Assembly: GCA_051294375.1 (NCBI GenBank)
Contig: CM119268.1
Coordinates: 11,195,710-11,259,709, forward strand
Direction: 5' to 3'
Length of the DNA stretch: 64,000 nucleotides
From: Paraspadella gotoi
Taxonomy: Eukaryota; Animalia; Chaetognatha
Shown: positions 7,501 through 62,114 of the stretch, piece after piece
Layout of the letters: each line of letters starts with the position of its first letter
Position numbering within the stretch: the stretch's first letter is position 1
The notes under the pieces: generated by a model
Seen by the model: only the letters and a program-made list of their open reading frames with translations
Told to the model about the DNA's origin: nothing
The model's database searches: none
Position numbers and translations under genes: made by a program

Positions 7501-10500
7501 CACAGCCCCCTAACTCAGGCTACCGCAAACCCGGATCAAGGGACCAATGAAAATGAATTGCAATTTGTTTGTTTTTTTTTCGGCAGAGCCCCATCAGCGT
7601 GGTCATGAAAGAGACGAGAAAAGATGAGATCAAAGCGCCATCACGTCGCCATCACGCCACACATATGACGTCGCAGAAAAACGCGTAACACACGAGTCCT
7701 GATAAATTACATACACGGCCTAAGGTCAGCGCTATCTGCTCAATGTGTGAATTTTCTTGTCAGGAGGTCATACGAAGCCCGTCAAGAGTGTGCTCCTGAA
7801 CATAGTAAGAAAAAAAAAAATTTGAAACTTTGTTATATATTTTGAAGGCTCTGAAATGTTTATCGAAATTGTAACTGACCGTGCTTATTACTATACATTG
7901 TGACGTACGTGGCCACTGCAGCATAACACAATAACAAGAAAAAGAGAAGTCTGGTACCTGATAGCGAGAAAAAAAATTTACTTATATTAGGACTAATTAC
8001 GTATAATAAATTTGTCGACCCCACGTCAATGTATTGTAATGTCATATAATATCGCGTCACGTAACGAACGTCCGAGTTCTCACGGAAATTCCCCCTCCCC
8101 CGATCCTCGCGCGCGCGAGTTCTCGAAATACTTGACGACGTGGGACAAGTATCCGCGAAGATTTAGGGAGACAACAAGGATCTCTTCATCAGACGATACG
8201 CGAGGGCATGCAATACCCCCCGTGTCGTCCTTCGACGCAGACACGGCCAGATACTCGGAAGTCCGCCCACAACGTGCAAACGAAGGTTGAAAGCCGATTT
8301 GGGTAATCGATCAGGAAGAGGACAGAATAATTGTGAGTAGTCGACGAGCTTAGACCATTCATGAAATTAGCTTCGGAACGATCGGAGCCTGACTTTAAGT
8401 TTGTCGCAACAATGATAGTCGTCCTACGACATTATGTGAAGAAGTGGTTTAATGGCTTACTATACTTATTTCAAGCCTACGGGCGCCAAATGACCGCGCT
8501 GTTGATAGTAGAAGCGAAATTTAGGGTCACCATTGTAACAAAATTCTGTTTTTTTATTTACGTTGGTTGAGCGGGATCGATGAAAGAAAAACGCGGAGAA
8601 ACGTAAATTCAATAAAGTTAATATTTTCTTCTTTCAACTGACTTTTACATTCTCACTCTTCCGCTATCCAGGAAACGATTCTGGCACATTCAGTTTGTCC
8701 TTCTGGCTGTTGCCCCTCAAGTTCTCCATCTTTGAGTCCACTGTCGCGAGTGCAGACAAAATTCACCATCTCTGCTGCGAGACCTCGCCTCCACAAGCTC
8801 AAACGAACTTCACAAAATACATCCAAACCCAACGCTCACAAGTGGAGACCGTGTCAAGTAGGACGATGGTAAAACTGAACAAAATTAGTTTTTGAGCGGT
8901 TGTATTAGTTGAGGCTTTCTTTTTGTGTTATAACTTTATAAAAGTACATGTACAAAAAAGCAGTCTCGTATGTTAAACAACTCACACATGAATTAATTCT
9001 CGTGATGAGAAAAAGCGAATAAAAGGGAGAAAGATTTTGTCTCCGGGTTGGGATTCATTTTTCCCCCGTCACTAAAATTAAACATTTTTTCATAATAATA
9101 AATGCAATCATTTTAAACCATGTCAAGCTCTATTCTCATCTTTCCTCGTTCGCGAATCCTCGAAAATTAATATTTTGAAGCGCTCTCGAACTTCTCGAAA
9201 CTTCCTAAAATTTTCCTTCCGTTCATTTCTTCGAAAACTTCGAAAGAAGCCAGATCCGAAGAATGGCGATTTTCGCACGTTAGTCCTTCTGTTTCCCGAG
9301 GCTTCGAGATCTTCTCCTATTTCTCGACTCGCCGATAGGGTATAAACTCGCGAATTCGCGACTCTCCACTAAATTTTACCGCAGAAGAAAAATAATCCTA
9401 AATCGACAAAAGAGGCAACGGCTAAAAGCGAACTGAAGCTCTCACCTTCTTGCCCATTAACACATTAAGAAAATTGAATCACCATTTCGAAAAAAAAAAA
9501 CGCGAAAAATTATCGCTAATTTTTCCGACAACTTAAATCAACACCATTGTTAAAATTTTTTAAAAACAGTAACAAAAACGACGACATTAACAACCAACAA
9601 TGAAATCTCCAGCCATCGCATCGACTTGGGGACGACCTACTCCTGCGTGGGCGTCTTCCAACACGGCAAAGTCGAGATCATCGCGAAGATCAAGGGAATC
9701 GGAACGACGCCTTCCTACGTCGCCTTCACGGACTCGGAACGGCTCGTCGGCGACGCTGCCAAAGAACCAGTTCGGCCATGAACCCGACTAACACAGTCCT
9801 TCGACGCCAAGCGACTCATCGGCCGTAAAGTTTGCCGACGACACCGTCCAACGCGACGTCAAACTCTGGCCATTTCAAGTCGTCAACGAAACGGAGGAAA
9901 GCCCCAAATCTCCGTCGAATACAAAGCCGAGCATCGATCCTTTGCTCCTGCAGAGAGATCTCCTCGATGTGTAGACGAAGATGGAAGGGAGACAGCGGGA
10001 GGCCCATACCATCGGACAGCAAGGTTCTCACGGCTGTGGTGACGGTGCCCGCCCCCCTACTTCAACGACTCCGCAGGCGTTTCCAAGCGACGAAAGACGC
10101 CTGGGCGTCATCGCCGGGCCTCAAAGCGTCTCCGCGTGATCAGAACGACCGACGGCGGCGGCGATCGCCTAACGGCACTCGGGACAAGAAAGAGCCCGCC
10201 CGACGATAAGAAACGTCCTCATCTTCATCTCGCCGGCGGAACCTCGACCGTCCTCCGTCCCTCAACCATTGGCAGGGCGGGGTGTTCGGAGGTCAAGGCC
10301 CACCAGCCGGCACACGCATCTCGGCGGCGGAAGACTTCGACGCGCGACTCGTCAAACATCTTCGTCGCCGAAAATTCCAAGCCCGGGAAGAACAAAAAGG
10401 ATCCTGTCGGGCAACAAACGGCCGCGCTAGGCCGGCGCTGAAGGACCCAGCGGCCGAGCGCGCGAAAGCGCACGTCATGTCTTCGTCTGCGCAGGGCGAC

Positions 10501-13500
10501 GGTCCGAGATCGATTCTTTCTTTGAAGGAAGTCGACTTCTATTCCAGCATCCCACTCCGCGCACGGCTTCGAGGAATATGTGCGGCCCCAGGATCTCTTC
10601 CCGCAGCAGCGTTGAGCCGGGTGGAGAAGGGCGCTTCTGTACACCAAGACCTGTCCAAGCGAGACATCCCACGAGTGGTTGTCTCGTCGGCGGCTCCACT
10701 CGGTATCCCCAAGATCCACAAAAATGCTGCAAGAATTTTCAAACGGGAAAGAACTTAACAAATCCATACCAACGACGGGACCAGCGCCGTCGCCTATGGG
10801 GCGCCAGCAGTCAAGCCCGCCATGCTTGACCCCGGCGTCCAAAGACTCCACAGTCCCAAGAGCGTCCTGCTCCTCGACGTGGCGCCGGCTGACGGCTGGG
10901 CATCGAGAACGGCGGGCGGCGTTATGACGCCGCTCATAAAGCGCAACACGACGTGCCGGACCAAACAGACTCAGACCTTCACCACCTACTGCTGACAATC
11001 AACCGCGGCGTCTCCATCCAAGTCTTCCGAAGGAGAATCGCCGCCATGACCAGAGAAACAACCTCCTCGGCAAGGTTCGAACTGAGCGGCGCATCCCTCC
11101 GGCGCCGCGCGGCGTCCCGCAGATCGAAGTCTCCTTCGACGTCGACGCCAACGGAATTCTCAAACGTATCCGGCCAAAGACAAATCGACGTCAACACCAT
11201 CGAGGAGATCTCTTCTGGAGCAAAGGATCGATGCTCGGCTTTGTATTCGACGGAGAGTTTGGGCTTTCCTCCGTCGTTGACGACTTGAAATGGCCAGAGT
11301 TTGACGTCGCGTTGGACGGTGGCGTCGGCAAACTTACGGCCGATGAGTCGCTTGGCGTCGAAGACTGTGTTGGTCGGGTTCATGGCCGACTGGTTCTTGG
11401 CGGCGTCGCCGACGAGCCGTTCCGAGTCCGTGAAGGCGACGTAGGAAGGCGTCGTCCGATTCCCTTGATCGTTGGCGATGATCTCGACTTTGCCGTGTTG
11501 GAAGACGCCCACGCAGGAGTAGGTCGTCCCCAAGTCGATGCCGATGGCTGGAGATTTCATTGTGGTTGTAATGGTCGTCGTTTTTTGTTACTGTTTAAAA
11601 AATTTTAACAATGGTGTGATTTAAGTTGTCGAAAAATTAGGATAATTTTCGCGTTTTTTTTTTTCGGAAAGGGTGAATTCAATTTTCTTAATGCTGTTAA
11701 TGGGCAAGAAGGTGAGAGCTCAGTTCGCTTTTAGCGTTGCTCTTTTGTCGATTTAGATTATTTTTCTTCTCGGTAAAAATTTAAGTGGAGAGTCGCGAAT
11801 TCGCGGAGTTTTTATACCCTATCGGCGAGTCGAGAAATCAGGAGAAGATTCTCGAAGCCTCGGGAAACAGAAAGACTAACGGCGAAAAATCGCCAGTCTT
11901 CGATTGGCTTCTTTCGAAGTTTCGAAGATGAACGAGAAATTTTAAGAAGTTTCGAGAAGTTTCGAGAGCGTTCAAAAATAATTTCGAGGATTCGCGAAAC
12001 GAGAAAGAGAGAATAGGAGTTGACATGGTTTTAAATGATTGCATTATTTATTGTGACAGAGGAAAAAGAATCCCAACCCGAAGACAAAATTCTTCTCGAA
12101 GTTTTATTCGCTTTTTCTCATCACGAGAATTAATTCTGAGTGAGTTGTTCACTATCGACTGCTTTTTTTTTTACATGTACTTTTATAAGTTATAACACAA
12201 AAGAAAGCCTCAACTAATACAACGCTCAAAAACATTTTGTTCAGTTTTACCATCGTCCTACCGACCACGGGTCTCACTGTGAGCGTTGGTTTGGATGTAG
12301 TTGTGAAGTTCGTTGAGCTTGTTGGAGGCGAGTCTCGCAGCAGAGATGTGAATTTGTTCTGCACTCGCGACAGTGGCTCAAGATGGAGAACTTGAGGGGC
12401 GAACAGTCCAGAAGGACAAACTGAATGTGCGAGATCGTTTCCTGGATAGCGGAAGAGTGAGAATGTAAAAGGTCAGTGAAAGAAGAAATCATTACTTTAT
12501 TGAATACGTTTCTCCGGTTTTTCTTCATCGATTCGCTCAACGCACGTAAATAAAAAAACGAATTTTTTCGAATGCCTAAATGTTCGCCTTCTACTATCAA
12601 CAGCGCGGTCATTGGCGCCCGTAGGCTTGAAATAAGTATAGTAAGCATTAAACCACTTCTTCACATATAGTCGTAGGACGACTATCATGTTGCGACAACT
12701 TAAGCTCAGGCTCCGACTCCGAAAGCTAATTCATGAATGGTCTAAGCTCGTCGACTACTCACAATTATTCTGTCTCTTTCCTTGATCGATTACCCAAATC
12801 GGCTTTCAACCTGCGTTTGCACGTTGTTGGCGACTTCCGAGTATCTGGCCGTGTCTGCGTCGAAGGACGACACGGGGGGATTGAGCCTCGCGTATCGTCT
12901 GATGAAGAGATCCTTGTTGATCTCCCAAATCTCGCGATACTTGTCCCACGTCGTCAAGTATTTCTGAGAAATGGGGGAGGATCGGGAGGAGGGGGAATTT
13001 CCGTGAGAACTCGGACGTTCGTTACGTGACGCGATATTATATGACATTACAATACATGACGTGGGGCTCGACAAATTTATGATACGTAATTTTATATTAA
13101 GTAAATTTTTTTTTCTCGCTATCAGTAACATTTTTTTTTTGTCTTTTTTTTTTGGAGAGAACAGTAATAAATGTAATAGTAATAAGGCACGGTCAGTTAC
13201 AATTTTCGATAAACATTTCAGAGCGCTTCAAAATATATAACAAAGTTTTCAAATTTTTTTTTCTTCTATGTTAAAAAACTTTCGTATCACAATGAAAGAA
13301 AATTAAATTGTAAGAACCTTGGCCCTTTTGTTTTTCTCGGCACCTGCAAGTTTTCCGCGTTGTTCTGCATTCCGCCGTTGATGGCGCTTTGGATCTTCAT
13401 CTTTTCGTCGTCTCTTTCGATGACCACGCTGATGGGCTGCGAAAAAAAACAAACAAATTGCAATCATTTTCATTGGTCCCTTGATCCGGGTTGCGAGTTA

Positions 13501-16500
13501 GGGGGTTTTTGGAAGCAAATGGACTGAAACTGACCTCTTTATTGCTCTTTCTTCTCGTCAGCAGATCGGGAAGCCTGGAAACAAAGGACACTGCCGAAGT
13601 CAGCTGATGACAGGTGTTGCCAACGATGGCTGCCAATTTCTTCAGCGTGGGAGCGAATTCAACCTGAGGACAAAGAGCGTTTTGATATTTTTAAAACCTA
13701 AGCATTATTTACGAAACCATTTTTTTTCTTTTTACGTACTACTATAACACATTCAACTACTAATTAAAAAAGTTATAACATTAGTGAGTGCGGGATTTTT
13801 TTTTTTAATCTTCGCTTACCTTTATACTTTTGGTTGAGCTACTTAGTTATTCGATAAACAACAAACAAAAGTGCAGATTGAAGTGTCTCTAGCGGACGGG
13901 TAAATGTTAATATGTATTTTTGTAATCTTGCTATTTACTTCGCGCAAATTACGCAGACATAGTTACAATCAATAATATAACTATAAAAAAAATTCTACTT
14001 TTGCGAAATTCTATAAAGCTGTTTTCATACGTCTATGACGGTAAGAGTTGTTAACCAACAATAACACACAGTTTTGACAATAAGTACATAGGACATAATT
14101 AAGCTAATTTACTACGAATCAACAAATGACTATTGGCAAATACGTTTCTGTCTTTGGCGCCCCTGTATCGCTGATTCGGCTAGGAAAAAAAAGTAAAAAA
14201 AATTTTTCAAACAAAAGGCGTCAGAAAATCTACTTTTTATCGCAAAATGAGAGTAAAAACGCGTGCGAGCGGATTCACGTGTTTTCGACGAAATTGCATG
14301 CTTCAATTCATGCCAACTGTAAGCTTTTTGCTCAGAAAAATCACGGAGAAATCCGTTTGGAGGCAAAAGTGTTATCAGTGAACTTTTTTTTGCAACTTGT
14401 GGAGGCAACGGAAGTGTTATGCAACCACCACGGCATCACGCTGACAAAAATTTTAAAGACACATTCCTCATTGTTAGAAATTGACATCTTTCACTCTACC
14501 CCATTTCCCCACAATCTACCAGGTGATATTTTATCACAATCCACTCACGCCTTTCAAGTTTCAACCCACCCACCCTCAACCCGATCCCCCCTTCCTCCCT
14601 TTCCCCTCTTCCTCACCTTTTCGTCCTCGAGTATGACTTGTACTTTGAACAAAGGATTGGGTGCGGACTTGCCGTCCCCGTTGATGGCTTTGGCGAGCTC
14701 CTGGAGGCTCCATTTGACGTTGAGGCGCAGCGCCTCTTCGACCATCCGGTCCATCTTTTCGGTGTAGCGGTACCAGTAGGCCTGCACCTCGGAAGGGTCG
14801 TTCTTGAAGGTCTGCAAAATGGCACGAAAAGGTTGAAGGTAGGGTATCAAAAATTTGAAGGGCTACATTTAATGTGCAAATAGAAGGAAAGATACAATAT
14901 TACAATATTACTTGCCTCGAATGTTGTTTTCATTTGGTTGACGATGTCTTCGTGGATGCCTTCGACTTTTCTAGCGATCGAGGATCGATGTCGACCTTTA
15001 AAAGGACAATCAATCAATCAATCAATAATACCATTCATCAATGAACAAACTTTTTTTTCAATCTATTATCAATCAATCAATGGCAATCAAATGATTTACT
15101 TTGATCGTCCTCGAACTCCGTTCTCTCGTAAACCCTCTTCCCATCGATTTTGACCAAGAGAATCTCAGAGATTCTCTTGCAGTGCTTGGCGATTTGTCTG
15201 GTTCGCCGTCTTGTAACTATCCGTGATGAGTTGGACCTGCAAAAGCAAGCAATAGTTCGATTTACGAGAAGGTCGAACAATCAATTAATCAATACTCAAA
15301 AATATAATTAATAAAGTAAGAAAAAATGAGCGGAAACATGAAATCAATCCATAGAGTGAATTGATATAATCGCGTCAAGGAATTGCATACCTTGGAAGCG
15401 TGTTGTCGACATTCGCTGATGAAGTAGTCTGAGATTCCCCCGAGAGCCCAGGTTAGCTTTGGTCAGGCCTGGAAACGGAAAAATTTTTAACAATTACTAT
15501 TATTTATTAAGATTACTATTTGAATTAGAGGTGGAAAAAAAAAATTATTTGTTTGATAACAACTATGTCAAAAAAAATCGTCTTTATAAAAAAAATACTT
15601 TATTTTCCTATTCTAAATTACTAAATAGATTAAAAAGATTGTGATTTCGAGTCCTACCGGCGTGAATCTTTTATATCAAGAATCGGATTCTTTCTCTGAA
15701 CAGTCCTCGTTCCTCGGGAGGAGAGGGCACCGATTATTCTGAAACAAGATCAAGTTTGAGAAATGAATTTTTTGGGACAAAAATTGTTCTAAAATTGTCC
15801 TAAATACATATTACTTAATTTAAAAGAAACATTTTCCTGTAGATTTTGATTAACTTAAGTCTAAAATTTGTCACAATTGAATACTATGCTGGAGTAATAA
15901 TGAAGATCAAAGCTTATGTCATAGTTATGATCAAAGATTATGATTATATCCATTCATTTAAAACAATAATTTTCCTCAAAGATTTTTTTCAAAAGCTATA
16001 GAGACCTGTTGTAGTCTCTGACCACGAGCAATACACTCGCAGATTGCGCAGATCTTCTCTCTTGATTATAACTTCTTCCCGCGTAGTGGGGGATCTCGAA
16101 CATAAGCTCTCCCAGTAGTGAATCTCTTGGAACAGTTTCAGCAGGTTGCTGCGAGCGAAAATGATATGTGAAAGTGTAATAGACTATCGTATCGAGATTT
16201 AATCATATTTAAAAAGTTTGTTGAGAAAAGCAAAATGCTAAGTAATATAATAAATCACCGGTCGAAGTTCATATCCAACATGGCGGATCGTTCCATGCTT
16301 CGGCACATCAGTGGAATTTCCAGCAACCGAGTCGGCTCCTGAACGGAAATCCAAATCACGAAATTATTCAAACAGGAATTAATATTGTTCAACTTTTACA
16401 CAAATGTTGAATTCCGAGACGATGCTAGTGTTTTTTTTTCTTCGTGAAATTGTGAAAACCGTAAAGTGCTCTGGTGATTCTTGCGATGACAGAATTACTC

Positions 16501-19500
16501 AAGGGAAACCTACGAACCTGAACCACATTAATTTCTTCACCGTCAACCTAAATATTTTATTCAAAAAAGAAAAAAAGCGCTGATTAAAAAATTTGACCGG
16601 GTCACAGTAATTTTAAAAAAATTTTGCGCAAACTTGCGTAGACGTGCAATCTCTACAAGTTATATCACTTCATTGTTAGGGAAGCCAAGCACTCGGGGGG
16701 TTATTGAACTAGACTGCGAGAAAGGCTTTCGAGAGGGCCCACCATAGCCTATCTATTGTCCAAAGTAATTGGCAAGATAGTGTGGCATTCACTATCGCCA
16801 CCCGCCTGAGTCTATCCGCGCAGCCCCGATGGCGTAAGAGCGAGAATGCTCTCTTCCCTCCAAGCGGTCTTGGGTTCGTGCCCCATTGCTGTCAATGCTA
16901 AGCCACCTGTCGTGGCGCACTACAGTCAGATCCGCCACTACTGAAATTAGTAACTTGTCCAGTCGTGTGGCACTGAAATCGCTTGTTTATTGAATAAGTG
17001 ATTAATTTTTATATTGGTTGAACAAATTATGAACATCTGAGCTGACGATCGCTATTATCATCAATATATATCAACTTTATCATATATTTGTACTGATGTC
17101 TGTGTCAGTCAGTCAGTCAGACGACGACAGACTTAGACATAGTACGGACCACCCTAAGAGAAAACTGTTTTAAACTCGGACTTGGAAATTCAGATACTAC
17201 GTAGCATCGTCGCATCGTAGTTTCGAAAGTCCTGCGTGGATCAAATAAATAATACCCGTAAATCCACGACGCAGTTTTCGTATCGGTCATTCACCTTTCG
17301 AGTTTTCTGTAGAACCGGTCCCGGCCCTGGAAACGTTGCTGACTTTTGATTATCGTAATAAAATGAACCATAAAAACTCGTTTCTCGTCCAATGACATTC
17401 GGCTTTTCGGCTCCTTTTATTATTTCTTTTATTTAAAATCATACCGAGTCACTGACTCGCGGCTACTGGATCTACTACATTTTATTCATGAGGCCGAGGT
17501 CCTTCACCTCTTATTCTCGCCTTTTTTTCATACAAAATCAATTAAACATATAACTGTACCGTAACATTGATAAAAATTTATATTCGTTACGCAGGATCAT
17601 ATAAATTATAAAGTAATTCAAATAAACATGGCTCCGAACGACGTCAAAATACATCTGAACTACTCCGTCGATTTGGAAACGTCTCTTCCTCTGAGCTCTG
17701 AAAAAAATGAGCCAGCTAAGAAAGGCCTTATCAAACCCAAGGTAAAAGAGCACAATGCTTCTCTGAATAAATGATCCTATTATGACAACAGTCGGGTTGC
17801 CTGTGATGCCCATTAGGATGGGCATTCTCACTGTTGGCTTTCGGGGCCTCAGTGACGCCTCCTGTCGCTGGCGCGATTACCCAAGGACGCTTAGCCAACG
17901 TAGAGTAGTTGGGATGGAACGCAACGCCTGGGATGGTGCGTTCCCCCTGTGAACCAATGGGATTGGCTGAACGATGATGGACGTGAGGCGGTGTGAATAT
18001 ACCGCCACACTATAATGGTATAAGTCAAACTTCAGTTTTGTTTTATCTGATATTTTACAGGAAGTGTCGGTCAAAGATGGGCGCTCCACTCAGGCCACCC
18101 TGGACGATCATTCCTTCGAGTTGGTGGAGTTCGACACCTCCTTCAAGACGGAAGACTTCTACTCGGAACCTTCGAGGATCGAGACGGAATATTTTCGGGA
18201 GATGGAGGAATGCATCAAGAGGAGCACTGGTGCAGAACTTGTTAAATGTTTCGACTATTTAGTTAGAAATAAAAGCAAGTTCGAACCGGAGGCTAAAGAT
18301 GGACGAATTGAAGGTAATGAAACGGAAAAATTGGTTTTTGATTGCTATTAGTCAATGCTTGTTATGATGCAAGAAGCCTTTTCCGTTAGTTTATCTATGT
18401 TTTATATTTTTAAAAATATATTAAAATGGAATAATTTTTTAATGTGAAGTTCTTGCAATTTTTTTTTTTTTTTTGATGAAGATGGCAATTAAGGATGTGA
18501 AATAGTTTTAAAATAATCAAAGCAATAAAACCTGACTTAATATTATTTTTCAGAGAACAATATCTGGGCAAAATGATTTTTGTTTCACAACGAATTTTAT
18601 TTTATCATAGAAAACGTACATGTTTCGGCTTTGTACGTTTTCTATGATAAAATAAAATTCGTTGTGAAACAAAAATCATTTTGCCCAAATACATGTAACA
18701 ACGAAAAAGAAAGGTTATTACCACTAGAGAACAATATCATAACCATTTCCTTTTAAATTTTAATAACAGATTACGCTCGAGGAATTCACACGGACCTCCA
18801 CGAAGAAAGCGCTCACGCCCTCTTCTCTTTCTTGACCGGAGATTTGGACGAGAGGTTCCAACGAGGAAGATTCGTCTGCATCAACGCTTGGAGGAACATT
18901 CGCGACGAGCCGCTCGAGAAAAATCATCTCGCCGTCCTTGACGCGAAGTCATTGTCTGGAGGTATCGGCTCAGAGGTAAGGACGTGGAAGTAAGTAAATC
19001 AATGCTTCAATGTAGCGAAGAAGGTTTTGTAAATTTGGGACTTAACCTCCATGACGCTTTGTTTGATCTTTGCAAGAGAAGTCTCTCTCTCTCTCTCTCT
19101 TACACTCTCTTGGCTTGACTTTCGCCGGTACCTAGTTGCCTCTGTTTCATTCCCAATCTCATGTATTACAATTAACATATATCTGTAGTCGGGCATTGCC
19201 TAGGTTCACCCCGCCTATAAGCATGACACCTTCAGTCCTGACCCGGTGGCTCATTGAGTAAAGCTATCAGCTCATGACCACTAGGTGCCGGGTTCAATCC
19301 CAACCCGGTACCTACCCTGCGGGAAGCGTGAGGACGGCCGTAAGCCGCCTTGGGGGCGTGGCAACCCCTCAAGCCTGGTTCCAAGCCCAGGACCCGTTCC
19401 ATGGCTACTAAAGGGGGTTATAGAAGTTACGGATAGTCATCTTAAGCCCACTTAGCGCCTTATCCACATATCTTTCTCTCTGATTGCCCATAAAGTATTA

Positions 19501-22500
19501 TTTTCTGCTTCCACCATCTTCAAAAACTAATCGGATTTTTGAAAGCAAGGTCAAACATTTCCAAACTATTCTCCACACCAGGATTACTTGGAGAATTGCT
19601 TCGGCCACAAATCAATGGAAAAATTCTTCGTGCTGAACGAGAAAAACAGCGCCTCCCACGAATGGCACTATTTCCCGCGCATGCGCAAAGAGGAAGTGCT
19701 TCTCTTCAAACAGTGGGACTCCGACCCGGAGAGGCGCGCCATGACGTGCTTCCACGCCGCCTTCGACGACCCTCGAGTAGCTGGCGACGAAGCGGCCAAG
19801 CCCCCTCGCGAGTCGATCGAAGTGCGCGCCATCGCGTTTTTTCCCGATCACGCGCCCAACACGTGTCCGAAGGTGGAACCGGTTGACGTCGAAGACGCTT
19901 TCGGTTTTAAACGCGGAAGTCCGATTTTTCGGATCGGATGGAGGCATGAGCAAAATAAGTTCTTCGGTCTGTGAAACGTCGAATGCGTCCCGTATAGACG
20001 TTCCGCTTACAAAACGGCGAATTTAAGCAAAAAAACCACTTTTTCCAATATTGTTCAGTTGTTTACGTTACAATATTAATTTAATTTGTACCACGAATAC
20101 AAAATTGGGCTGAACTAAGGATTGGTTAAAATCATCTCCACCTGTTTCTAATGATAACAAAGTACAATTTTTTTCTATATTTAGGGAAAAAAAATCATGT
20201 CCATTTTTTGTCCATTTTCACTTTCGTCTTCTGATTAGAGTGCCAAGGAAAGTTGAGAAAAAATTTTTACTTTGGAAATCCGTTCTTCCTTATCTTCTTT
20301 ACCTCTGGGTTAATTTATTTTCCTTAAATCATTTATAGTTTGCCTATGAATTAATTTTTAAAGTTGACAAGTCAAAAAGTTTCATTTCTGTTTTTTTTAT
20401 CATAATTTGTTAAACGAAATTGTTCAAATGTGGTTTAAATTAACAGAAATATAGGCAATTGAATAAGCTTTTAACACCTATAAAATTATCAAAAAAAAAC
20501 TTTTTTGTTTAGCCACAAATAATTTTTAAAGACGTTTTTTAATTTGTGACTTTTTTGTGACTTGCATTTATTTTTGATAAAGAGAATATTTTTAAAAATA
20601 GTTTTTAAAGGATGAAGTACATACTGACGTTGATTAATCCAAAAAAACCGCATCCTTTTAACCAATGGAAAGCGTCAGGACTATTTTTCTGAGAATCGAC
20701 AGATTTTTGCGGAAAATATTTTCCGCAAAATCTGTCGATTTACTAAATCTGCTAGGCAACCAAAATTGAAATAAAATCTGCGCTACCCCAAAATTTTTTT
20801 TTACTACAGTTCTTTCAAAACTTTTTTATTTGGTCACGTCAGAAAATAAGACAACAAGAGAAAAAGAGAAGTGGAGCGAGAAAGAGTGTGTGAAATAAGA
20901 GGAGCAGGTAGAGGGAGAGGAATTGGATTTGAAAGTAGAGAAAAGGAGAGAGAGACGAAGAGAGAAGAAGAGAAGCAGAGATAAGAAGGAAGAAAAAAAT
21001 AATAAAGTTAAAAAAGCAAAAGAGAGGAAGAGAGAGGAAAGGAGGAGAGAAGGATTGAAGGAGGGAAAGAAAGAGTGTTAGAGAGAGTGACAGAGAGGGA
21101 GAAAGAGAAAAGGGATGAGAGAAGGATTGAAGGAAGGAAAGAGAGAGTGACAGAGAGGAGAAAAAGAAGGAAAAAAAGAAAAAGGGAGAGGAAAAATTAA
21201 AAGATTAAGTGTCATCTTTATCCTGAAGAGTTCTGTGAATCTGATTGACGCCTAAATTCCTATGAGCAATTTTATCTTTAAAAGTTGTGCTTACCATGAA
21301 AAAATCGCATGTACTTCTTTTCTTAAATTAAGCAGATAACGAGATTTGATTGAAGAAATCATGTCTTACCGTATTTGAAGGCATAGAAATTCAACTAAGT
21401 GTGTCTCGATGTTATATAGGAGAAAAGATAACTATAGCCAACCGTTTTTTATAACTGAAGAACGTCCTATATTTATCAGATGGGGTGAAAATAAATGATA
21501 TTGTATATTCGAATTTCAAAACATTAGTCTAAAATACCCGTAAGCGAGGTATACAGCTCTATAACTATCAGCCGAATGTAGTTAATCCGACAAGTATATG
21601 TAATCGAAAGATTGAACATATTGATTTTTTAGCATTGAAAATGCTATTGAAGTAGCATGTTTCCTAATACTTACGAGACTTCGATTCCGAATTTCTGGTG
21701 TATTGAATTCTTGTTTTAAACTTCTTTGTGACCCGAAACTTATGTACTCTCAGCCATTTATGGTGTATTGTTAAAAATTTATTTGTTTGCAAGTAAATTT
21801 TGTGTCGATGATTGTTGTATTACATTTTTTTAAAGTACAAGCAGTCAGGGCCGTCATTTTGAGGTTTATATTCGGTCGAAGTGAAAATAGCCCTGAGGTA
21901 AGCAAGTCCCTGCTCGGTCATATTCCAGCAACTAAGGTTAGAACAAACGTCTAAACGTATTTTACATTGAATTTAAGCATAATTATGGAATTTTTTAAAA
22001 ATATGTCCGGTTTGAGTTTTGTATGGATTTAATTCAATTGGTTTAAAGTTGATTTGTTTTTATATATTTGGAGTTGATTTATTTTTTTTCGATTTGATTT
22101 AAGAAATTAGAACAATAGAAGTTATTTTATAACAGATAAATTTCCTAGAAAGCAAAAATGGGCCCCTTGTTCTTTTGTTCCCCGCCAAAAATAAGCAAAG
22201 CTGAAACCAAGTTCCCGCCAATTTTCTGGTTTTAATTGGATCGTTAAATCGCAAGCGAAGAAAGAATCATATCCCGGATGTAATTGTAAACAAGGGCTCG
22301 TTTGTTATTTTTTTCTTCGTAAGAAAAAGAATAATATCAATCGCAGTACTGAGTTCATACGCAGGTTTTTTTTCTAAAATCCTCCAATTTATCCCTACCC
22401 AGACGATTCTCCCGAACTTACCCTATCCGTCTGCCCGGTCCACTCGTTGAAGGTCTTGCGGATGAACTCTTCCAAGGCCGTTGAGAGTTGGTGATATTGC

Positions 22501-30686: not shown

Positions 30687-33600
30687 GGCTATATGCTCTC
30701 GACAATTTTTCTCTTATGATTAAAGCTTATTTGCATATTGTAGTATTTAAAGTCTTAAACATAATTTTTTTTTTGTAAATGGATCGATAAATTTTTTTAA
30801 AAAATCAGGACAAGATAATTGTCGTAGACTGAAAGCATGTAAGTTAACAAAATAAGATTTTAATCTGATAGATTATTTTTAACTATGATCCTTTCTAATG
30901 TGATAACTATAACAATTTCATTTGAACGGATAAAAGGATACCCGTCTTTGATAGAATTAGAGATTAATCCGATGCTCTTTTGTCTCTTAAATTATTTGGG
31001 AAGCTCCTAGTACAAGGACGGGAGCTAATTGTTTTAATAGTTTTAATATTCCCCTATGCCTATTTACATATTGCAGTATTTCAAGTCAATCAGAATGCCC
31101 TTTAAGACTATTTCACATAACTTCCAGAAATTTAGTATGGCTAAATTTTATAACAATCATTTTAGTATACTGAAAAAATGTTAGTTTGGAAGTGAATCTT
31201 AATCTGATAAGCCTAATCTACATCCTTTTTAGATAAATGGAAAAAGACTTTCAGATGGAGGAATAAATAGACACCGGCCGAGACGGTGAGATAATAACGT
31301 TGCTATTTTGTCTTTTTATTTGGGAAGCTCCTTAGAACGGGAGCTGATGATTAAGTGCAACGTAACACGTAATATAGCCGTCCCGTAATATTCGTGTTAA
31401 TATCTTTCTCTTGCCTGATTTGTCGAGCTGTTGGCTGAGTCCCGAGAGATCGACGCATCGCGATCTCCAAAACTCGATCTCGTCGAGCGGACCAGAATTC
31501 TCCACAGTCTCGAAGGCGTCTTGGGAGCTGAGCACCTCTTTGATCTGCCGCGTCCAGTGTATCATAGCCGTCTCGAGCCTAAATTTTATGTTTTTTAATG
31601 ATTATTTTTTAAAAACACGCGACAGTTGACTAAATTCGAGTATGACGAAAGACTGATCAAAAGACTGGAACTTATACATAATTATAATGACTATAGTCTA
31701 TCGACTATAGATTATATAGAATATATAGAATAGATTAAGTAATCGACGTAAGCCGACATTACGATTAACAGCGACAGTTCACAAATAATTAAAAAACAAC
31801 AAATCGTAGCATTTTTTCCATGTACTACTCTTTCCCGCCGCTACCCCGCCCAACTCATTCCCACCTCTGCACAAGCTCCTTGTTCCGGGCGGCCACCTCA
31901 GGGTCCTTGTTGACTCCCTCCTGCGGAATATATAGCACGGTGTGCCCGTCGAGCTTGTGTTTGGTGTCAGTGAGACTGCCCATAAATTTGTGGAGCTGAG
32001 CCGAAAACTCATTCTTGATGGAATCGGGCCACGTGCGGTTCTCGAAGAACATTGGCGCGTACACGTTGTACATGAGACGCATGAGGCAATCTGGGGGTTG
32101 GAGCGTAAAACACATTATGAATGCTATGAAAAACAACTACTAGTCTAAAATTTAGAGAATAGTTGACAGAAAGACGTCAGAAAATGAAAAGAAATGGTGG
32201 CAAAATGAAAATTGTAAAAGAGAGCATGATAAAGAGTATTACTATTAAGGACCTTTTTGGGGCAACTACTAAACGGAGAAATAATACGCTAAAATCGATA
32301 TCATTTTAAATAAATAATCGAAGTAAACAATTTTGAATATATTATTCCCTTCACACACCGATCTGTCTCTGACCGACGCCTCTGATAAGCCCCATCTGTA
32401 CGTTGAAGGCGAAGTTGGAGGACGTCACCCTCGGCACCACCTGGAATTAGAAGATGACAAAATTCAGTTCTGTGGAGATGTATTCATCAATTAGGTATGA
32501 AGTTAAAACAATAAATTTTACTTGAGTGACGCTGTTTGGTATTTTGAGGAGATAGAATATTTCCTCGGCGGGATTGCAGGGAATCTGATGCTCCACCGAT
32601 AGGCCCACCACGCTGTCCATGTAGAAGGCGAGGAGTCTGAGGACAGTGTTAAATGGATCGATGAATCAAGTAGTAAGAAAAGGAAAGAAAAAAAACACAA
32701 GAAGAAAAAACAAACAAACCCCCAAAAAAATCAATTTTCGCGAATCACCCTGTTAAAATTAATTCATAAGAATAAAAATTAAGAAAAATTTTTAAAAATA
32801 TCTTCTCATTCTACTTGCCCCCCCCCCACCTAATCACCTGTGACCATCGTCGTTAAACCAAGCGTCGATGGCGGCGTGATGTTCCTCGGTCCACATTTCC
32901 GGCGCGCACTTTGACAGCGTCACTCTCTCCTTGACGACGACGCGTCTTTTGTTTCGCTCCTCCAACTCTTCCTCCGTCAGCGCCACCTCATCCGCCACGC
33001 CGCCGCCGCCGCCGCCCACGGCGCTCAGCGTCTCGTCGCGGGCGGCGTCAGCGGCGCTGTCGTCCCCGGTTTCTTGAAGAAAAAAAAAGTTTGGTTGTTT
33101 TTATCGTTTCGTTTTATGAAATTACTTGTTTTTTTTTATTTTTTAGATTTAAAATAACTATTATTTATGATTTTATTTATTTGTTAAAATATTTTTGTGT
33201 TAAATATTTAAATTTAATATTTATCTGTTTGGGATGGTGACGTTAGTATTGTCTTCTGGAAATAAAGGGTGCATCTACACAACACAAGGTTATATTACTT
33301 TCTCTTCCAGTTTTCTAATAGATAGCATATGGCCCATAATTATTGAGACAAAAGATTGAATGTGTTACAGTTTATAACATTTTATTGTAAATATAAATAC
33401 AAAATATATTTTTTTAATACTAATAACGTTAACTAAATACAGACGAACAAGTTGAACCAAAAAAAGTCACAATTTTCTAGTGAAATGTGGTGTAGGGACC
33501 TTTAAATCGAGACGCCAGCTTTCTCGTAGAAAACCCAACTTTATTTTCCATTCCTTTCACGATGGTGCGCAACTGTCTTGCCGTGAGTTTTCTTGGCCGC

Positions 33601-34330
33601 CCTGCGCCTTTTTTGTGTTTGAGAGTATCTCCAGACTTTACTCTTTGTATTACGCGATATATAGATGGACGGCTAACATTTAACTTCAAAAAATACTGTA
33701 AAGTAAATGCTGTTCCTTCTTGTTCATGATTTTGGTAGAATTGGGCAATGACTTGACGGCGCGCTTCAGAGGAAATTGACTGCATCTTGAGCTTCCAAAG
33801 GGCCGATAAAAAAAAAATTCACAGTTTGGTAGACAAACATCCTAGGCTTTATTTAAAAAAAAAGAGCTTTCTACGGCGTCCTGGACGCCGTCTACAGGCC
33901 CCGGAAGCCGTCTCAATAATTATGGGCCAGATGTTATCATACGTATCGTATGTATGATTACATTCGCTCCTTCGTTTTTTTGTTTAAATTGTTTATTTTG
34001 TTAATATTTATTTTGTGCAGGTCCTCGTGATCTACAAACGAGGACGTTACCATGAGTGAAAATCGTCGAATCATCATCATCATCATCATAGCAGATCAAC
34101 ACAGCGGTCGCGTTCATTAAATCACTATTAAAAAGATATAATCACAACGATAACGACGACAACAATGTCGATATAGTTCAAACGGCCTCACCTGACGAGA
34201 GTCCGTGGGTGGGCGAGGCCGACGAGGGCTGCTCCTGCGACCCACCTGCCGACCCCGTTTTGTAGCCCGACTCCCCTCCCTCTCGCTCCAGCGGCGAACC
34301 GCTCTTGGGGCGGGAGCTCGAGTCCGCCAT
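1511..34330 (-). CDS. DNAH2: Axonemal dynein heavy chain 2-like, N-terminal tail region (multi-exon, continues left of the window)
   Basis: Exon peptides match DNAH2 in order: [14 protein letters not shown]...[13 protein letters not shown] (~31415-31578), [69 protein letters not shown] (~14620-14812), [13 protein letters not shown]...[32 protein letters not shown]...HEQFAILDK (1511-1643). Putative start MADSSSRPK at 34330. Exons within 12.2-16.4 kb carry indel noise. Confidence 0.93.
1968..2403 (-). CDS. HSP70: Cytosolic Hsp70, C-terminal part (cut by the N gap)
   Basis: [32 protein letters not shown]...GPTVEEVD*; EEVD terminus. Confidence 0.95.
2404..2449. other. 25-N assembly gap followed by a possible SMRTbell adapter-like remnant
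   Basis: Exactly 25 N, then aaaaaaaaaagaggaggagat, which resembles the adapter end AAAAGAGAGAGAT and has no counterpart beyond the right arm end (18280). Confidence 0.5.
9600..11190 (+). CDS. HSP70: Hsp70 N-terminal ~80% (indel-riddled consensus)
   Basis: MKSPAI(G)[11 protein letters not shown]... through ...DANGILNVSAKDKST. It ends in atcgacg, the same bases that begin the minus-strand C-terminal piece at 2403. Confidence 0.85.
11191..11560 (-). CDS. HSP70: Hsp70 N-terminal fragment (redundant copy in the right arm)
   Basis: [45 protein letters not shown]...EEISSMVLT, then an abrupt junction. Confidence 0.9.
11809..11974 (-). promoter_or_regulatory. Hsp70 promoter: TATA box plus heat-shock elements
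   Basis: TATAAAA at ~11810-11816 on the minus strand. Alternating nGAAn/nTTCn arrays at 11843-11867 (agaag attct cgaag cctcg ggaaa) and 11945-11974 (agaag tttcg agaag tttcg agagc gttca). Mirror copy at ~9170-9346. Confidence 0.85.
16820..16990 (+). mobile_element. tRNA-derived SINE-like element (mirror copy ~3815-3985)
   Basis: A-box-like TGGCGTAAGAG and B-box-like GGTTCGTGCC at tRNA-like spacing, followed by a hairpin-rich body and an AT-rich tail. Confidence 0.5.
17090..17530. mobile_element. Possible DINE/Helentron-like non-autonomous element (mirror copy ~3230-3710)
   Basis: (CAGT)n/(GTCT)-type microsatellite near one end and GC-rich small hairpins; ends not resolved. Confidence 0.3.
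17628..19974 (+). CDS. CmcJ/NvfI (AsaB-like) putative Fe/2-oxoglutarate oxygenase, 4 exons (17628-17741, 18061-18313, 18770-18975, 19582-19974)
   Basis: Family-type motifs: [45 protein letters not shown] (HxD), [11 protein letters not shown]...[54 protein letters not shown] introns with consistent phases. Confidence 0.85.
18565..18727. mobile_element. Fold-back copy of the hammerhead-bearing repeat (~56-bp perfect inverted arms)
   Basis: tgggcaaaatg...aaacgtaca / tgtacgttt...cattttgccca around the loop tgtttcggctt; matches 568-672. Confidence 0.75.
19240..19430 (+). mobile_element. tRNA-derived SINE-like element carrying a twister ribozyme
   Basis: A box TGGCTCATTGAG (~19247) and B box GGTTCAATCC (19291), followed within ~10 nt of the tRNA-like end by the twister fold. 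Confidence 0.7.
19319..19397 (+). ncRNA. Type-P5 twister ribozyme (predicted cleavage U19341/A19342)
   Basis: P5 gcggg/cccgt; aa; P2' gcgt; GA-GGA; P1 cggccg; UAA; P2 gcc; GCC; P3 ttggggg/ccctcaa; g; P4 cctgg/ccagg; L4 U-UCC-AAGC. The T1 pseudoknot is UCC/GGA and T2 is GC/GC. Confidence 0.8.
20694..20740. repeat. Near-perfect 47-bp palindrome
   Basis: aatcgacagatttt(t)gcggaaaat|attttccgcaaaatctgtcgatt. Confidence 0.85.
25125..25245 (+). repeat. 21-bp tandem repeat (gacgacgatattgacgacgga) x ~5, preceded by (gattcacg) x ~4 at ~25010-25050
   Basis: Read directly from the sequence. Confidence 0.9.
25440..28881 (+). CDS. BTB/BACK-like - two ubiquitin-like - F5/8 type C (discoidin/galactose-binding-like) protein, multi-exon, nested antisense in a dynein intron
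   Basis: QDVVFKF...[19 protein letters not shown]...[16 protein letters not shown] (BTB); [20 protein letters not shown] and [29 protein letters not shown] (UBL-like); [15 protein letters not shown]...CWC...AWWRAEF...NPKAFRIEG...WTTLL...FKFCRIYV (F5/8C-like). Confidence 0.65.
30970..31350 (+). repeat. Two copies of a short repeat ending in an agctcc...ggagct hairpin (~30975-31030, ~31300-31350)
   Basis: Shared tgct.ttttgtct...atttgggaagctcc...acgggagct; possible rolling-circle element 3' ends. Confidence 0.45.
33325..33934 (-). mobile_element. Internally deleted Tc1/mariner-superfamily element
   Basis: TIR core tggcccataattattgagac / gtctcaataattatgggcca, flanked by TA on both sides. ORF 33477-33785 encodes only the HTH region with GAGRPRK and lacks the DDE/D domain. 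Confidence 0.88.
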
Positions 34331-37324: not shown

Positions 37325-37692
37325 TTAAACATACTTATATTCAACCTTTTACGCTGATGAAACTGATCTCTTAAACGGATGGGACGAACTGTCAAACAAG
37401 CGGGAAGTGACTCTGCGTCTGTTACAAAAAAAAAAGCAGTTGTTGGCTTTTCGCTCAAAAATCATCGACTTGTAGCCCAAAAGCGGCGACCTTCAAGGTT
37501 CAAGAAGTTCTCTCTCTCGCTCTCTCTGTTTATTTCTTTTTCTTTATTCATTTAGAAACAATAATAAGCAATTTAAATCTGCAGCTACACTATCTTATGA
37601 TCATATTTTTGTAAATAACTTTGTTTTTTATAACTTTATGAGCTTCATAAATTAAATAATATGGTGGACTAAAATTCACCAACCGTTCATCA

Positions 37693-37850
37693 GCGGCCAT
37701 CGGTGCCGGAGGCAAGTCATTCGCCTCCCAACCCAAAGGTCCGGGGTTCTAGCCTGGTGGCCGCCTAGCAGTTAAGAGGGATGGGGCGCTTAACCCGCCT
37801 GTAACATGGTGTTACAGCCTGATCCAAAGCTCAGGGACTGCTTATTTTGA
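37693..37850 (+). mobile_element. Second tRNA-derived SINE-like element carrying a twister ribozyme
   Basis: 72-nt head closed by gcggccatc/ggtggccgc, B-box-like GGTTCTAGCC (~37745), then the twister fold. Confidence 0.65.
37767..37842 (+). ncRNA. Type-P5 twister ribozyme (predicted cleavage U37791/A37792)
   Basis: P5 agcagtt/gactgct; aa; P2' gagg; GA-UGG; P1 ggcgct; UAA; P2 ccc; GCC; P3 tgtaaca/tgttaca; g; P4 cctga/tcagg; L4 U-CCA-AAGC. The T1 pseudoknot is CCA/UGG. Confidence 0.8.
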
Positions 37851-38475
37851 ACGGTTCTGTCATTAACACTTATCAATAATTACTGTCTCTTCAATAAAAT
37901 TATTAACTCTCACGTTAAGAAAATATTAATCATATGCGGAACAGTCGCGACCTTAAACCTAAATTGCACAACTCGGTGAAATTCACGGCTTTCTCCCCCT
38001 CTTCTTCATCTCGCGTTTCACTTTTCGTAAAAGTAGATGAAATGAATCATGACTCAGCATTTTTTCTGTGAAGAATATTCTTTTTTGGCAACAGTTATTT
38101 TTGCTTTCTGAATTTTTAGCTTTGAATTGTTTTGTATTTTTCAAACAAAGACTTAAAATTAAAAAGTTTGACCAATCTCAAGCCCAATTTCTGCAGGTCT
38201 CGACCTCGGCAAAACGTCAAAGCACTTCTTTGAGAGACTATCTCTCAGCCTTCAGCGCGAGAATGGGGACCTGCTTGCTTCCCGAAGTCCCGTGATTGAG
38301 TTGCCTCCTCATTTGACTTTGCCCGATCATCTCTTCTTTTTTCTAAATTTCTTCATTTTTGGTTCACTTTTATTGTTAACATATAAAAAGTTTTTTGAAA
38401 CCATTCCCGCAATTATTTGTTTGCTCTATTTTTTTAAAAAAATGGTCTACTTGAATTTCTTGACAGATCTTGAAA

Positions 38476-39414
38476 ATGTCGTCTTCATCCTCATCCTCCA
38501 TCGACCTTTGCCAATTTTGCTCGATTCAATTCGACGAAGAGGAAAACGAAGAAGACAAAATACAGCATAGGATTTTAGAATGCGGACAGACCATAAAAAA
38601 GTCGAAAAAATGTAATTCGGATTTCCGCTTATCGGTCGTCCAATTCAACGTCGGAGGCCTTCGGAAACGACGAGAGGCGTTAGAGCGATTTTTGAATGGA
38701 CGCGACGACGTCATCGTCTCGTTAAACGGGACACGGTATACCGGGGAAGATGACACCGACGAAGATAGCGATGACGATGGCGACGATAGCGACGATAGCG
38801 ACGAAAGCGAATCGCCCGGTTTCGAGTCGATTCCTGGGTACGAACTGTACAAAGACGACTTCGACGAAGAGATCACCGGCCTCGCAGGCGGCGTCGCTTT
38901 TTTAGTGCCGGAGAATTTCAAAGTGAAGAAAACAACGAAGGACCGCGGGCTGGATAATCTAAGAATCGTTGTATCCTTGCCTTGCGGACATCGTTTAAAC
39001 CTGATGTCCTATTATAATCACCCACGAAGCGGGGAAGCCGGTCTGCCCTCTATTAGGGAAATCAACGAAAACGCCATCCGAAAGTTCTTCTATAAAAAGC
39101 CCACTCCAGGACGGCATAGATCCAAAGGGGCCACCGTTAATCTGCTTGTGGGAGACCTCAACGCCAACCACGAGATGTTCGGCTCCTCAAAAACGGACAC
39201 CACCGGCAGAGATTTGGTCGAAATCCTAGACGACCAAAACCTCTGCTGCCTTAACGACGGAACGCCCACTCGCGGAAAAAACGTACTCGACTTCGCCATC
39301 ACCGACCGAAATTCGGTACGCCACGTGGCGTCTTGCCGCGTCCTTCGTCATATGAAGGACAAAAAAAACCAAAAATCGGATCATCGTCCCTTAGAAATCC
39401 AATTGGTATTCTAG
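38476..39414 (+). CDS. Stand-alone endonuclease/exonuclease/phosphatase (non-LTR APE-like) domain protein
   Basis: SVVQFNVGGL, GGVAFLV, SYYNHP, LLVGDLNANH..FGS....GRDL, LNDGTPTR...VLDFAI, SDHRPL then stop. Uninterrupted ORF with no RT downstream. Confidence 0.85.
   Translation: MSSSSSSSIDLCQFCSIQFDEEENEEDKIQHRILECGQTIKKSKKCNSDFRLSVVQFNVGGLRKRREALERFLNGRDDVIVSLNGTRYTGEDDTDEDSDDDGDDSDDSDESESPGFESIPGYELYKDDFDEEITGLAGGVAFLVPENFKVKKTTKDRGLDNLRIVVSLPCGHRLNLMSYYNHPRSGEAGLPSIREINENAIRKFFYKKPTPGRHRSKGATVNLLVGDLNANHEMFGSSKTDTTGRDLVEILDDQNLCCLNDGTPTRGKNVLDFAITDRNSVRHVASCRVLRHMKDKKNQKSDHRPLEIQLVF

Positions 39415-59214: not shown

Positions 59215-62114
<2,900 letters not shown>

What the first reader, a model, noticed from the sequence alone, without database searches (positions are those of the whole stretch)
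37693..37842. Second, sequence-divergent SINE-twister with compensatory changes in every helix
Seen: the same architecture with different sequence. T1 pseudoknot CCA/UGG (vs UCC/GGA), P4 cctga/tcagg (vs cctgg/ccagg), P3 tgtaaca/tgttaca, P5 agcagtt/gactgct. P2 is ccc/g(a)gg vs gcc/g(c)gt, with the bulge at the same position. The loop residues UAA, GA, GCC and AAGC are invariant. Inference: covariation between two different tRNA-like heads indicates selection on the ribozyme fold and at least two families of twister-SINEs in this genome.
Basis: partly seen in the sequence, partly recalled or inferred. Interest (0 to 1): 0.9.

Follow-up and report, generated by a model that had tools for sequence, protein, structure and literature searches.

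The report
Twister ribozyme inside tRNA-promoter LTR
This stretch is the middle of a 234-base repeat scattered in many copies through an invertebrate genome; its ends look like those of a retrotransposon's long terminal repeat rather than a SINE, and it joins a tRNA-like promoter to a predicted self-cutting twister RNA, so it is likely an animal counterpart of the plant "retrozymes", which spread through circular RNA.

Summary
The twister fold is real. A full type-P5 descriptor hits only this site and the one at 19319-19397, against 1 hit in 150 shuffles. All 28 and 26 pairs are canonical, with two-sided changes in P2, T1, P3 and P4; T2 is invariant.

The SINE label fails. Contigs laid on each site show two high-copy families with sharp ends: 37660-37893 (TA...CA, flanked by ATAA twice) and 19184-19468 (TG...CA, flanked by TATC twice). 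Neither has a tail, and copies do not pile up at the head or cut site. These are solo-LTR marks, matching animal Helenus TRIMs (tRNA-derived A/B boxes in the LTR, 4-bp TSD).

No animal Helenus LTR I read in the paper's supplement has a twister, but two gall-wasp LTRs carry an unreported hammerhead in the same place.

Likely mechanism: Pol III reads a two-LTR element, both twisters cut, and the monomer circularises, as in plant retrozymes. P1 is reduced to a self-complementary hexamer in both families, which hints at cleavage as a dimer.

Not shown: a two-LTR copy with PBS/PPT, transcription or cleavage.

The parts
37660..37893 (+). Family B element, 234 bp, TA...CA ends; read as a solo LTR
   Evidence: depth 180-330 outside vs about 3-4.6 million inside (X1); unrelated flanks begin at 37660 (147 contigs in X1) and at 37893-96
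37656..37659 (+). Left target-site duplication ATAA
   Evidence: only k=4 matches among k=2-8
37894..37897 (+). Right target-site duplication ATAA
37662..37681 (+). Hairpin near the 5' end of the LTR
   Evidence: predicted fold
37681..37689 (+). 9-nt arm complementary to 37848-37856; would close head plus twister into one domain
   Evidence: no equivalent found in family A
37693..37765 (+). tRNA-like head: acceptor-like stem, degenerate A box 37701-37712, B box 37745-37754; A-to-B spacing 44 nt as in tRNA
   Evidence: Sequence; fold z -2.9; not called by ARAGORN; boxes fail a strict 1-mismatch test in this copy
37767..37842 (+). Type-P5 twister ribozyme fold; predicted cut U37791/A37792; general base G37780
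   Evidence: element order matches Rfam RF02684 consensus
37785..37790 (+). Reduced P1: self-complementary hexamer GGCGCU
   Evidence: no stable monomer hairpin; homoduplex -8.3 kcal/mol
37848..37856 (+). Partner arm of the 9-nt inverted repeat
19184..19468 (+). Family A element, 285 bp, TGT...ACA ends; solo LTR in sense orientation between exons of a CmcJ/NvfI-family gene
19180..19183 (+). Left TSD TATC of copy A
19469..19472 (+). Right TSD TATC of copy A
19240..19314 (+). tRNA-like head of A: A box 19247-19258, B box 19291-19300 (spacing 44 nt)
19319..19397 (+). Type-P5 twister of A; predicted cut U19341/A19342; P1 hexamer CGGCCG at 19335-19340
   Evidence: homoduplex -10.7 kcal/mol

Best explanation
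The site is the core of a 234-bp high-copy repeat that is likely the solo LTR of a non-autonomous, Helenus-type LTR retrotransposon, whose tRNA-derived boxes would drive Pol III transcription and whose twister fold is predicted to cut the RNA at the same point in both LTRs, so that the monomer would be circularised and reverse-transcribed by a helper gypsy element, as in plant retrozymes. SHOWN: the twister pairings and conserved residues, two families, many independent insertions with fixed ends, T(G/A)...CA termini, 4-bp TSDs, and no family-wide T4 terminator in the LTR. INFERRED: Pol III starts at the head of the 5' LTR and reads through (no terminator). The 5' twister removes the roughly 100-nt leader and the 3' twister makes the 3' end. 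With both cuts at one site there is no R repeat, so a host ligase must close the 5'-OH / 2',3'-cyclic-phosphate ends. tRNA-primed reverse transcription round the circle rebuilds two LTRs (or one), and a gypsy integrase inserts the DNA. SPECULATIVE: the palindromic P1 hexamers of the two LTRs pair with each other, favouring cleavage in full-length RNA over cleavage in host introns that carry a solo copy.
For: Ends and TSDs. The majority letters of the unrelated flanks on the two sides of family B are similar and AT-alternating, as a 4-bp target preference would give (table 7; agreement only about 0.4). Animal Helenus is defined by tRNA-derived A/B boxes in the LTR, 4-bp TSDs, gypsy-like PBS and solo LTRs (PMC10886601, main text parts 1-4). 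TA...CA LTR ends occur in its published set, e.g. Helenus-3_TheEle, -2_EuAn, -1_MeDo and -3_MeDo. A/B spacing is 44 nt in both families. The only T4 run in B is private to this copy (99% of depth has another base) and A has none, whereas many published ribozyme-free Helenus LTRs have a T run just after the B box (read by eye). Two published two-LTR Helenus families (Helenus-2_SyJa, -2_SyUm) carry a full hammerhead core right after the B box and no T4 run (read by eye), so promoter plus ribozyme within an LTR recurs. Retrozyme model: PMC4918200 passages. Twisters tolerate loss of P1 and imperfect P2/P4: PMC11662667 and PMC5408937 passages. Family A variants fall on the P2 bulge, the P3 loop, and G.U pairs that become A-U or G-C.
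Against: No copy with two LTRs, a PBS and a PPT was seen; no genome assembly was held and both window copies are solo. Cleavage is untested. The nested minimum-energy fold of each ribozyme region is a different hairpin, 7 and 13 kcal/mol more stable than the pseudoknot-free part of the active fold, so misfolding is possible. Family B has A-U where twisters have an essentially invariant G-C closing L4, and P2 has 3 bp plus a bulge instead of 4 bp. The promoter boxes are degenerate, most of all in B. Lack of variants at catalytic residues is weak evidence, since most positions show none at the 3% cut-off. P1 is dispensable in monomeric twisters, so a dimer is not required; the palindrome rests on 2 families.
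Confidence: 0.6

Rival explanations
1. Same LTR element, but linear: only the 3' twister cuts efficiently and acts in place of a Pol III terminator, leaving an R repeat from the head to the cut site, so ordinary LTR strand transfer works without a circle.
For: The twister sits where many Helenus LTRs have their T run. Competing folds could slow the cut. Cassandra makes linear Pol III RNA with short terminal repeats (PMC10886601).
Against: Both LTRs carry the same sequence, so the 5' copy would have to escape cleavage. Plant retrozymes with the same layout give circles.
Confidence: 0.17
2. Twister-bearing SINE or other target-primed retroposon, comparable to Schistosoma SM-alpha or the twister-headed Perere-3.
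For: tRNA-derived head, very high copy number, no internal domain seen. tRNA-promoter SINE-like repeats with a hammerhead are known (PMC6765202 passages). Helenus may itself arise from a SINE inserted in an LTR.
Against: Fixed ends well outside the head, CA 3' ends, exact 4-bp TSDs in 2 of 2 copies, no tail, depth not higher at the 3' end, and no listed pile-up of ends at the cut site (those tables show only the best-supported rows).
Confidence: 0.08
3. The LTR belongs to an autonomous gypsy element or to a Penelope-type pseudo-LTR, or family B is a rolling-circle (Helentron-like) element read on the minus strand.
For: Internal regions are unseen. B has a subterminal inverted repeat next to a terminal hairpin.
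Against: A Pol III promoter suits a non-coding RNA. Penelope and Helitron insertions do not give precise TG...CA ends with 4-bp TSDs (recalled). Family A lacks the repeat-plus-hairpin layout.
Confidence: 0.08
4. The twister is a relic carried passively in the LTR and no longer cuts.
For: Competing folds, the A-U pair at the L4-closing position, no Rfam score; copy A sits in sense in an intron.
Against: Every pair and catalytic residue is kept across two families that share little other sequence: each whole LTR fails to find the other by nhmmer, yet the cores align in register.
Confidence: 0.07

Closest known systems
Helenus (TRIMp3), animal families; Kojima 2024, PMC10886601 (main text parts 1-4 of 6; supplement DataS1 parts 1 and 5-9 read, whole file motif-searched)
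   Same: tRNA-derived A/B boxes inside a short LTR, TG/TA...CA ends, 4-bp TSD, solo LTRs, several families per genome.
   Different: A twister follows the B box and there is no T-run terminator. The paper's main text never mentions twister and mentions ribozymes only in a reference title. Internal domain, PBS and PPT were not seen here.
Plant LTR retrozymes; Cervera 2016, PMC4918200 (passages); reviews PMC7761336 and PMC9695139 (passages)
   Same: Self-cleaving ribozyme inside an LTR of about 300 bp, 4-bp TSD, solo LTRs, proposed gypsy helper.
   Different: Animal host, twister instead of type III hammerhead, and a tRNA-type internal promoter; circular RNA not shown here.
Type-P5 twister ribozyme, Rfam RF02684
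   Same: Order P2'-GA-T1'-P1-UAA-P2-GC-P4-U-T1-AAGC-P4'; both pseudoknots; catalytic A and G.
   Different: P1 is a 6-nt self-complementary segment instead of an 8-bp hairpin; P2 is 3 bp with a bulge; long P3; A-U closing pair in family B; not scored by Rfam.
Schistosoma T-variant twisters of Perere-3 (PMC8501958, passages) and SM-alpha hammerhead SINE-like repeats (PMC6765202, passages)
   Same: Ribozyme with a weak P1 in an animal retroelement; tRNA promoter plus ribozyme (SM-alpha).
   Different: Those are non-LTR elements and Perere-3 begins at the cut site; here the cut lies mid-element, 132 of 234 and 158 of 285 nt from the start.
Dimer-cleaving hammerheads of amphibian retrozymes and Penelope elements (PMC7229834, PMC6765202, passages)
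   Same: One base pair capped by a palindromic tetraloop in place of a full helix.
   Different: Different ribozyme class; dimer cleavage is untested here and twister P1 is dispensable.

Membership tests
Twister ribozyme, type P5 | P2, P4 and pseudoknots T1, T2 pair, in P5-permuted order | tested here: met
   28 of 28 and 26 of 26 pairs canonical
Twister ribozyme, type P5 | Conserved loop residues (U^AA, GA, GC, U-NNN-AAGC) | tested here: met
   one departure: A-U for the usual G-C closing L4 in family B
Twister ribozyme, type P5 | P1 hairpin | tested here: not met
   6-nt segment, no stable monomer hairpin; P1 reported dispensable
Twister ribozyme, type P5 | Reaches the Rfam RF02684 gathering score | tested here: not met
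   No twister match at E up to 1 (window) or 10 (local):
Twister ribozyme, type P5 | Self-cleavage at U/A | not testable with these tools
   Needs an in vitro assay
Helenus (animal TRIMp3) | LTR termini TG (or TA)...CA with fixed ends | tested here: met
Helenus (animal TRIMp3) | 4-bp TSD | tested here: met
   2 of 2 copies
Helenus (animal TRIMp3) | tRNA-derived A and B boxes in the LTR (TRGCY, YGG, GGTTC) | tested here: inconclusive
   GGTTC in both; TRGCY in A only; YGG in neither; 44-nt spacing in both
Helenus (animal TRIMp3) | Two LTRs around a short non-coding domain with PBS and PPT | not testable with these tools
   No genome held; both window copies are solo
LTR retrozyme | Self-cleaving ribozyme inside an LTR with 4-bp TSD | tested here: met
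   Fold and ends shown; activity predicted
LTR retrozyme | Ribozyme is a type III hammerhead | tested here: not met
   It is a twister
LTR retrozyme | Circular RNA monomer accumulates | not testable with these tools
   Only assembled contigs were available
tRNA-derived SINE | Element starts at the tRNA head and ends in an A-rich or tandem tail | tested here: not met
   Starts 33 and 56 nt before the head; ends in CA with no tail
tRNA-derived SINE | Longer, variable TSDs and 5' truncation | tested here: not met
   Only 4-bp TSDs in 2 of 2; depth not 3'-biased

The most novel reading that the evidence does not exclude
Animals have their own LTR retrozymes: Pol III-driven TRIMs that replaced the terminator with a self-cleaving ribozyme at least twice (twister here, hammerhead in gall-wasp Helenus-2) and spread through circular RNA. 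Here the twister works as a P1-swapped dimer of the 5' and 3' LTR copies, which spares host pre-mRNAs that contain one of thousands of solo LTRs.
Probability: 0.3. Interest if true: 0.85.

Novelty: new variant of a known kind. Interest (0 to 1): 0.7.

Why it matters
Reviews state that LTR retrozymes are mainly plant elements with hammerheads and that animal retrozymes lack LTRs. The only retroelement role they give twister is at the 5' end of RTE-type non-LTR elements. A twister inside a tRNA-promoter LTR in an animal would join two separately described kinds (Helenus and retrozymes), give twister a second defined biological job, and predict a new source of abundant circular RNA. It is cheap to test: rescan Helenus/TRIM libraries for ribozymes, find two-LTR copies, and assay two natural 80-nt RNAs. 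It also shows that Rfam misses short-P1 P5 twisters.

Tried and rejected
No assembly of this genome is held, so copies could not be extracted one by one and no covariation statistic was computed.

Rfam at relaxed E-values gave no twister or tRNA hit; ARAGORN found no tRNA.

My first idea that TTTT at 37845-48 is a Pol III terminator was rejected: it is private to this copy.

No RNA holder was listed among 9 runs in 3 studies; X9 is only guessed to be RNA. This is not used as evidence on expression. The best DNA runs may include the source sample. Summed contig depth is not a copy number; the roughly 10^4 ratio is only a sign of very many copies.

Pattern scans found no member of either family: viral 0 and 1 loci, metagenome 4, prokaryote genomes 2. 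Of the 7, L001 is a known phage P5 twister, L002 a new P5-like twister, and 5 fail the pairing test. A 6-nt-P1 pattern on 27 of 64 parts of the viral collection gave no short-P1 twister.

A covariance model from the two copies, nhmmer and self-BLAST found no third copy in the window.

The APE-endonuclease ORF 570 nt downstream is not part of the element; depth falls to single-copy level by 37912.

A Prp19 tree did not place the host: it sits on an isolated branch with 4 unnamed proteins, best named hits 73-74%.

A long-range arm like B's 9-nt inverted repeat was not found in A.

Full report
Observation. The sequence at 37693-37842 is as described, and its partner lies at 19240-19397. Read in the order of the Rfam type-P5 consensus, both give P5, P2', GA, T1', a short P1 segment, U^AA, P2, GC, P3, P4, U-T1-AAGC, P4', P5'. 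All 28 pairs in this copy (B) and all 26 in the partner (A) are canonical. Two-sided changes between them: P2 1 of 3, T1 2 of 3, P4 1 of 5, P3 5 of 7; T2 is invariant and P5 cannot be put in one register. A full descriptor hits only these 2 sites in the window, against 1 hit in 150 shuffles. It recovers 5 of 6 Rfam-scored twisters in phage locus L001. Motif matches alone rarely pair: 2 of 122 had both T1 and P4, and both were that known twister. Rfam does not score either window site, probably because P1 is 6 nt and P3 is long (inference).

One correction. Contigs from four public runs laid on B show that its T1 A-U pair is a minority form: G-C holds 83-91% of depth in X1 and 97-99% in X5. Both changes are CpG-type, and other CpG sites in the head vary at 3.5-11%. 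That double change therefore need not reflect selection, although the family-to-family difference remains two-sided. In family A the listed variants fall on the P2 bulge, the P3 loop, a CpG in P5, a minor change in P1 and two G.U pairs that become Watson-Crick, with a minor insertion in P4; 10 rows were not shown. No variant is listed at catalytic residues in either family, but most positions have none at the 3% cut-off, so this is weak.

What the element is. Depth rises about ten-thousand-fold over each site and drops sharply at both ends; the tool warns this is not a copy number. Unrelated flanks begin at 37660 (147 contigs in X1) and 37893-96 for B, and at 19184 (126) and 19468 (69) for A. 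B reads TA...CA with ATAA on both sides; A reads TGT...ACA with TATC on both sides; only k=4 matches among k=2-8. By hand estimate a chance 4-mer match in such AT-rich flanks is about 1% each. There is no tail, no 3' excess of depth, and no listed pile of ends at the head or cut site. These are solo-LTR marks, not SINE marks. Loose ends at 19307, 19406 and 19416 show further subfamilies that share the twister but differ in head or 3' part. Copy A lies in sense between exons of a CmcJ/NvfI-family gene. The host is an animal that one Prp19 tree could not place.

The heads. Neither is a tRNA by ARAGORN or by fold. Both keep a GGTTC B box 44 nt after an A-box-like start, the tRNA spacing (recalled numbering). 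The A box is good at its 5' half in A and degenerate in B; about 12% of B depth has the canonical A at the position where this copy lacks it. Neither family has a T4 terminator in the LTR: the run in B is private to this copy.

Comparison with what is known. Kojima 2024 (PMC10886601; main text parts 1-4 of 6 read) defines Helenus as TRIMs with tRNA-derived boxes in the LTR; animal families make 4-bp TSDs, depend on gypsy and leave solo LTRs. The text has no mention of twister. I read supplement DataS1 parts 1 and 5-9, which hold the animal families, by eye, and motif-searched the whole file (line breaks can hide hits; fungal parts 2-4 not read). I saw no twister. Many LTRs end shortly after the B box with a T run, and several begin with TA. 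Two gall-wasp families, Helenus-2_SyJa and -2_SyUm, carry a complete type III-like hammerhead right after the B box, with no T4 run and with PBS/PPT-bearing internal domains. Plant retrozymes have a hammerhead in the LTR, 4-bp TSDs, solo LTRs and circular RNA (PMC4918200 passages). Reviews say animal retrozymes lack LTRs (PMC7761336, PMC7229834, PMC9695139 and bioRxiv 10.64898/2026.07.22.740005, passages); PMC7761336 mentions unpublished type III hammerhead elements in insects. Twisters in retroelements are reported at the 5' end of RTE-type LINEs (PMC8501958 passages). Seven searches of the open library (listings and abstract starts only, apart from the papers named) showed no twister in an LTR element. 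Subscription papers, Repbase and bioRxiv supplements were not visible and may bear on novelty.

Mechanism. Most likely (0.6), Pol III starts at the head of the 5' LTR of a two-LTR element and reads through. The twister cuts at the same U/A in both LTRs, 132 of 234 nt (B) and 158 of 285 nt (A) from the start. This leaves no R repeat, so the RNA is ligated into a circle and copied by a gypsy reverse transcriptase and integrase. The fold, ends and TSDs are shown; transcription, cleavage, circles and the two-LTR form are inferred. P1 is GGCGCU in B and CGGCCG in A: no monomer hairpin, but homoduplexes of -8.3 and -10.7 kcal/mol. This resembles the one-pair, palindromic-tetraloop helix III of amphibian hammerheads that cleave as dimers. 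It is speculative, because twisters cleave without P1.

Against activity: the nested minimum-energy fold differs from the active fold in both copies, B has A-U at a normally G-C pair, and P2 is short, though P1, P2 and P4 flaws are reported as well tolerated in type-P1 twisters. Rivals: linear RNA with the twister as terminator (0.17), SINE (0.08), autonomous gypsy, Penelope or rolling-circle element (0.08), dead relic (0.07).

Verdict. A real, unannotated twister variant inside Helenus-like LTRs; a new variant of a known kind that works like a retrozyme, with family membership unproven until a two-LTR copy is found. Interest 0.7.

Noticed in passing
PMC10886601 supplement DataS1, Helenus-2_SyJa-LTR and Helenus-2_SyUm-LTR: Complete type III-like hammerhead core (GUC site, CUGAUGA, GAAAC, complementary loops I and II) right after the B box, not mentioned in the paper; read by eye.
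   Followed up: partly
L002:1630-1706 (minus strand): Third P5 twister with the same bulged 3-bp P2, CCTGG P4 and a short near-palindromic 9-nt P1 region, in an AT-rich metagenome contig; 35.9 bits with my model, no Rfam hit, no tRNA boxes seen.
   Followed up: partly
L001:116-2625 (minus strand): Viral contig with six Rfam Twister-P5 copies spaced about 410-560 nt apart.
   Followed up: no
window 19307, 19406, 19416 (loose ends): Dozens of contigs per run join the family A twister to a different B-box head or a different 3' part: further subfamilies or families.
   Followed up: no
window 2449-9977 and 11189-18280: Giant inverted duplication, 87-89% identical, with HSP70 fragments at the centre; real duplication or assembly artefact not decided.
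   Followed up: no
window 18016-19974 (+): Intron-containing CmcJ/NvfI-family oxidoreductase gene (an NCBIfam prokaryotic model) in an animal; possible horizontal origin.
   Followed up: no
window 18561-18691 and 568-674: Fold-back (MITE-like) element with 60-nt arms and a second copy near the window start.
   Followed up: no
window 61413-61495 (-): C/D snoRNA resembling SNORD53/92, 38.9 bits, below the gathering score.
   Followed up: no
window 38464-39414 (+): 316-codon ORF with an APE-type endonuclease domain and an acidic tract, no reverse transcriptase ORF seen beside it.
   Followed up: partly
window 33477-33818 (-): IS630/Tc1-like transposase fragment.
   Followed up: no
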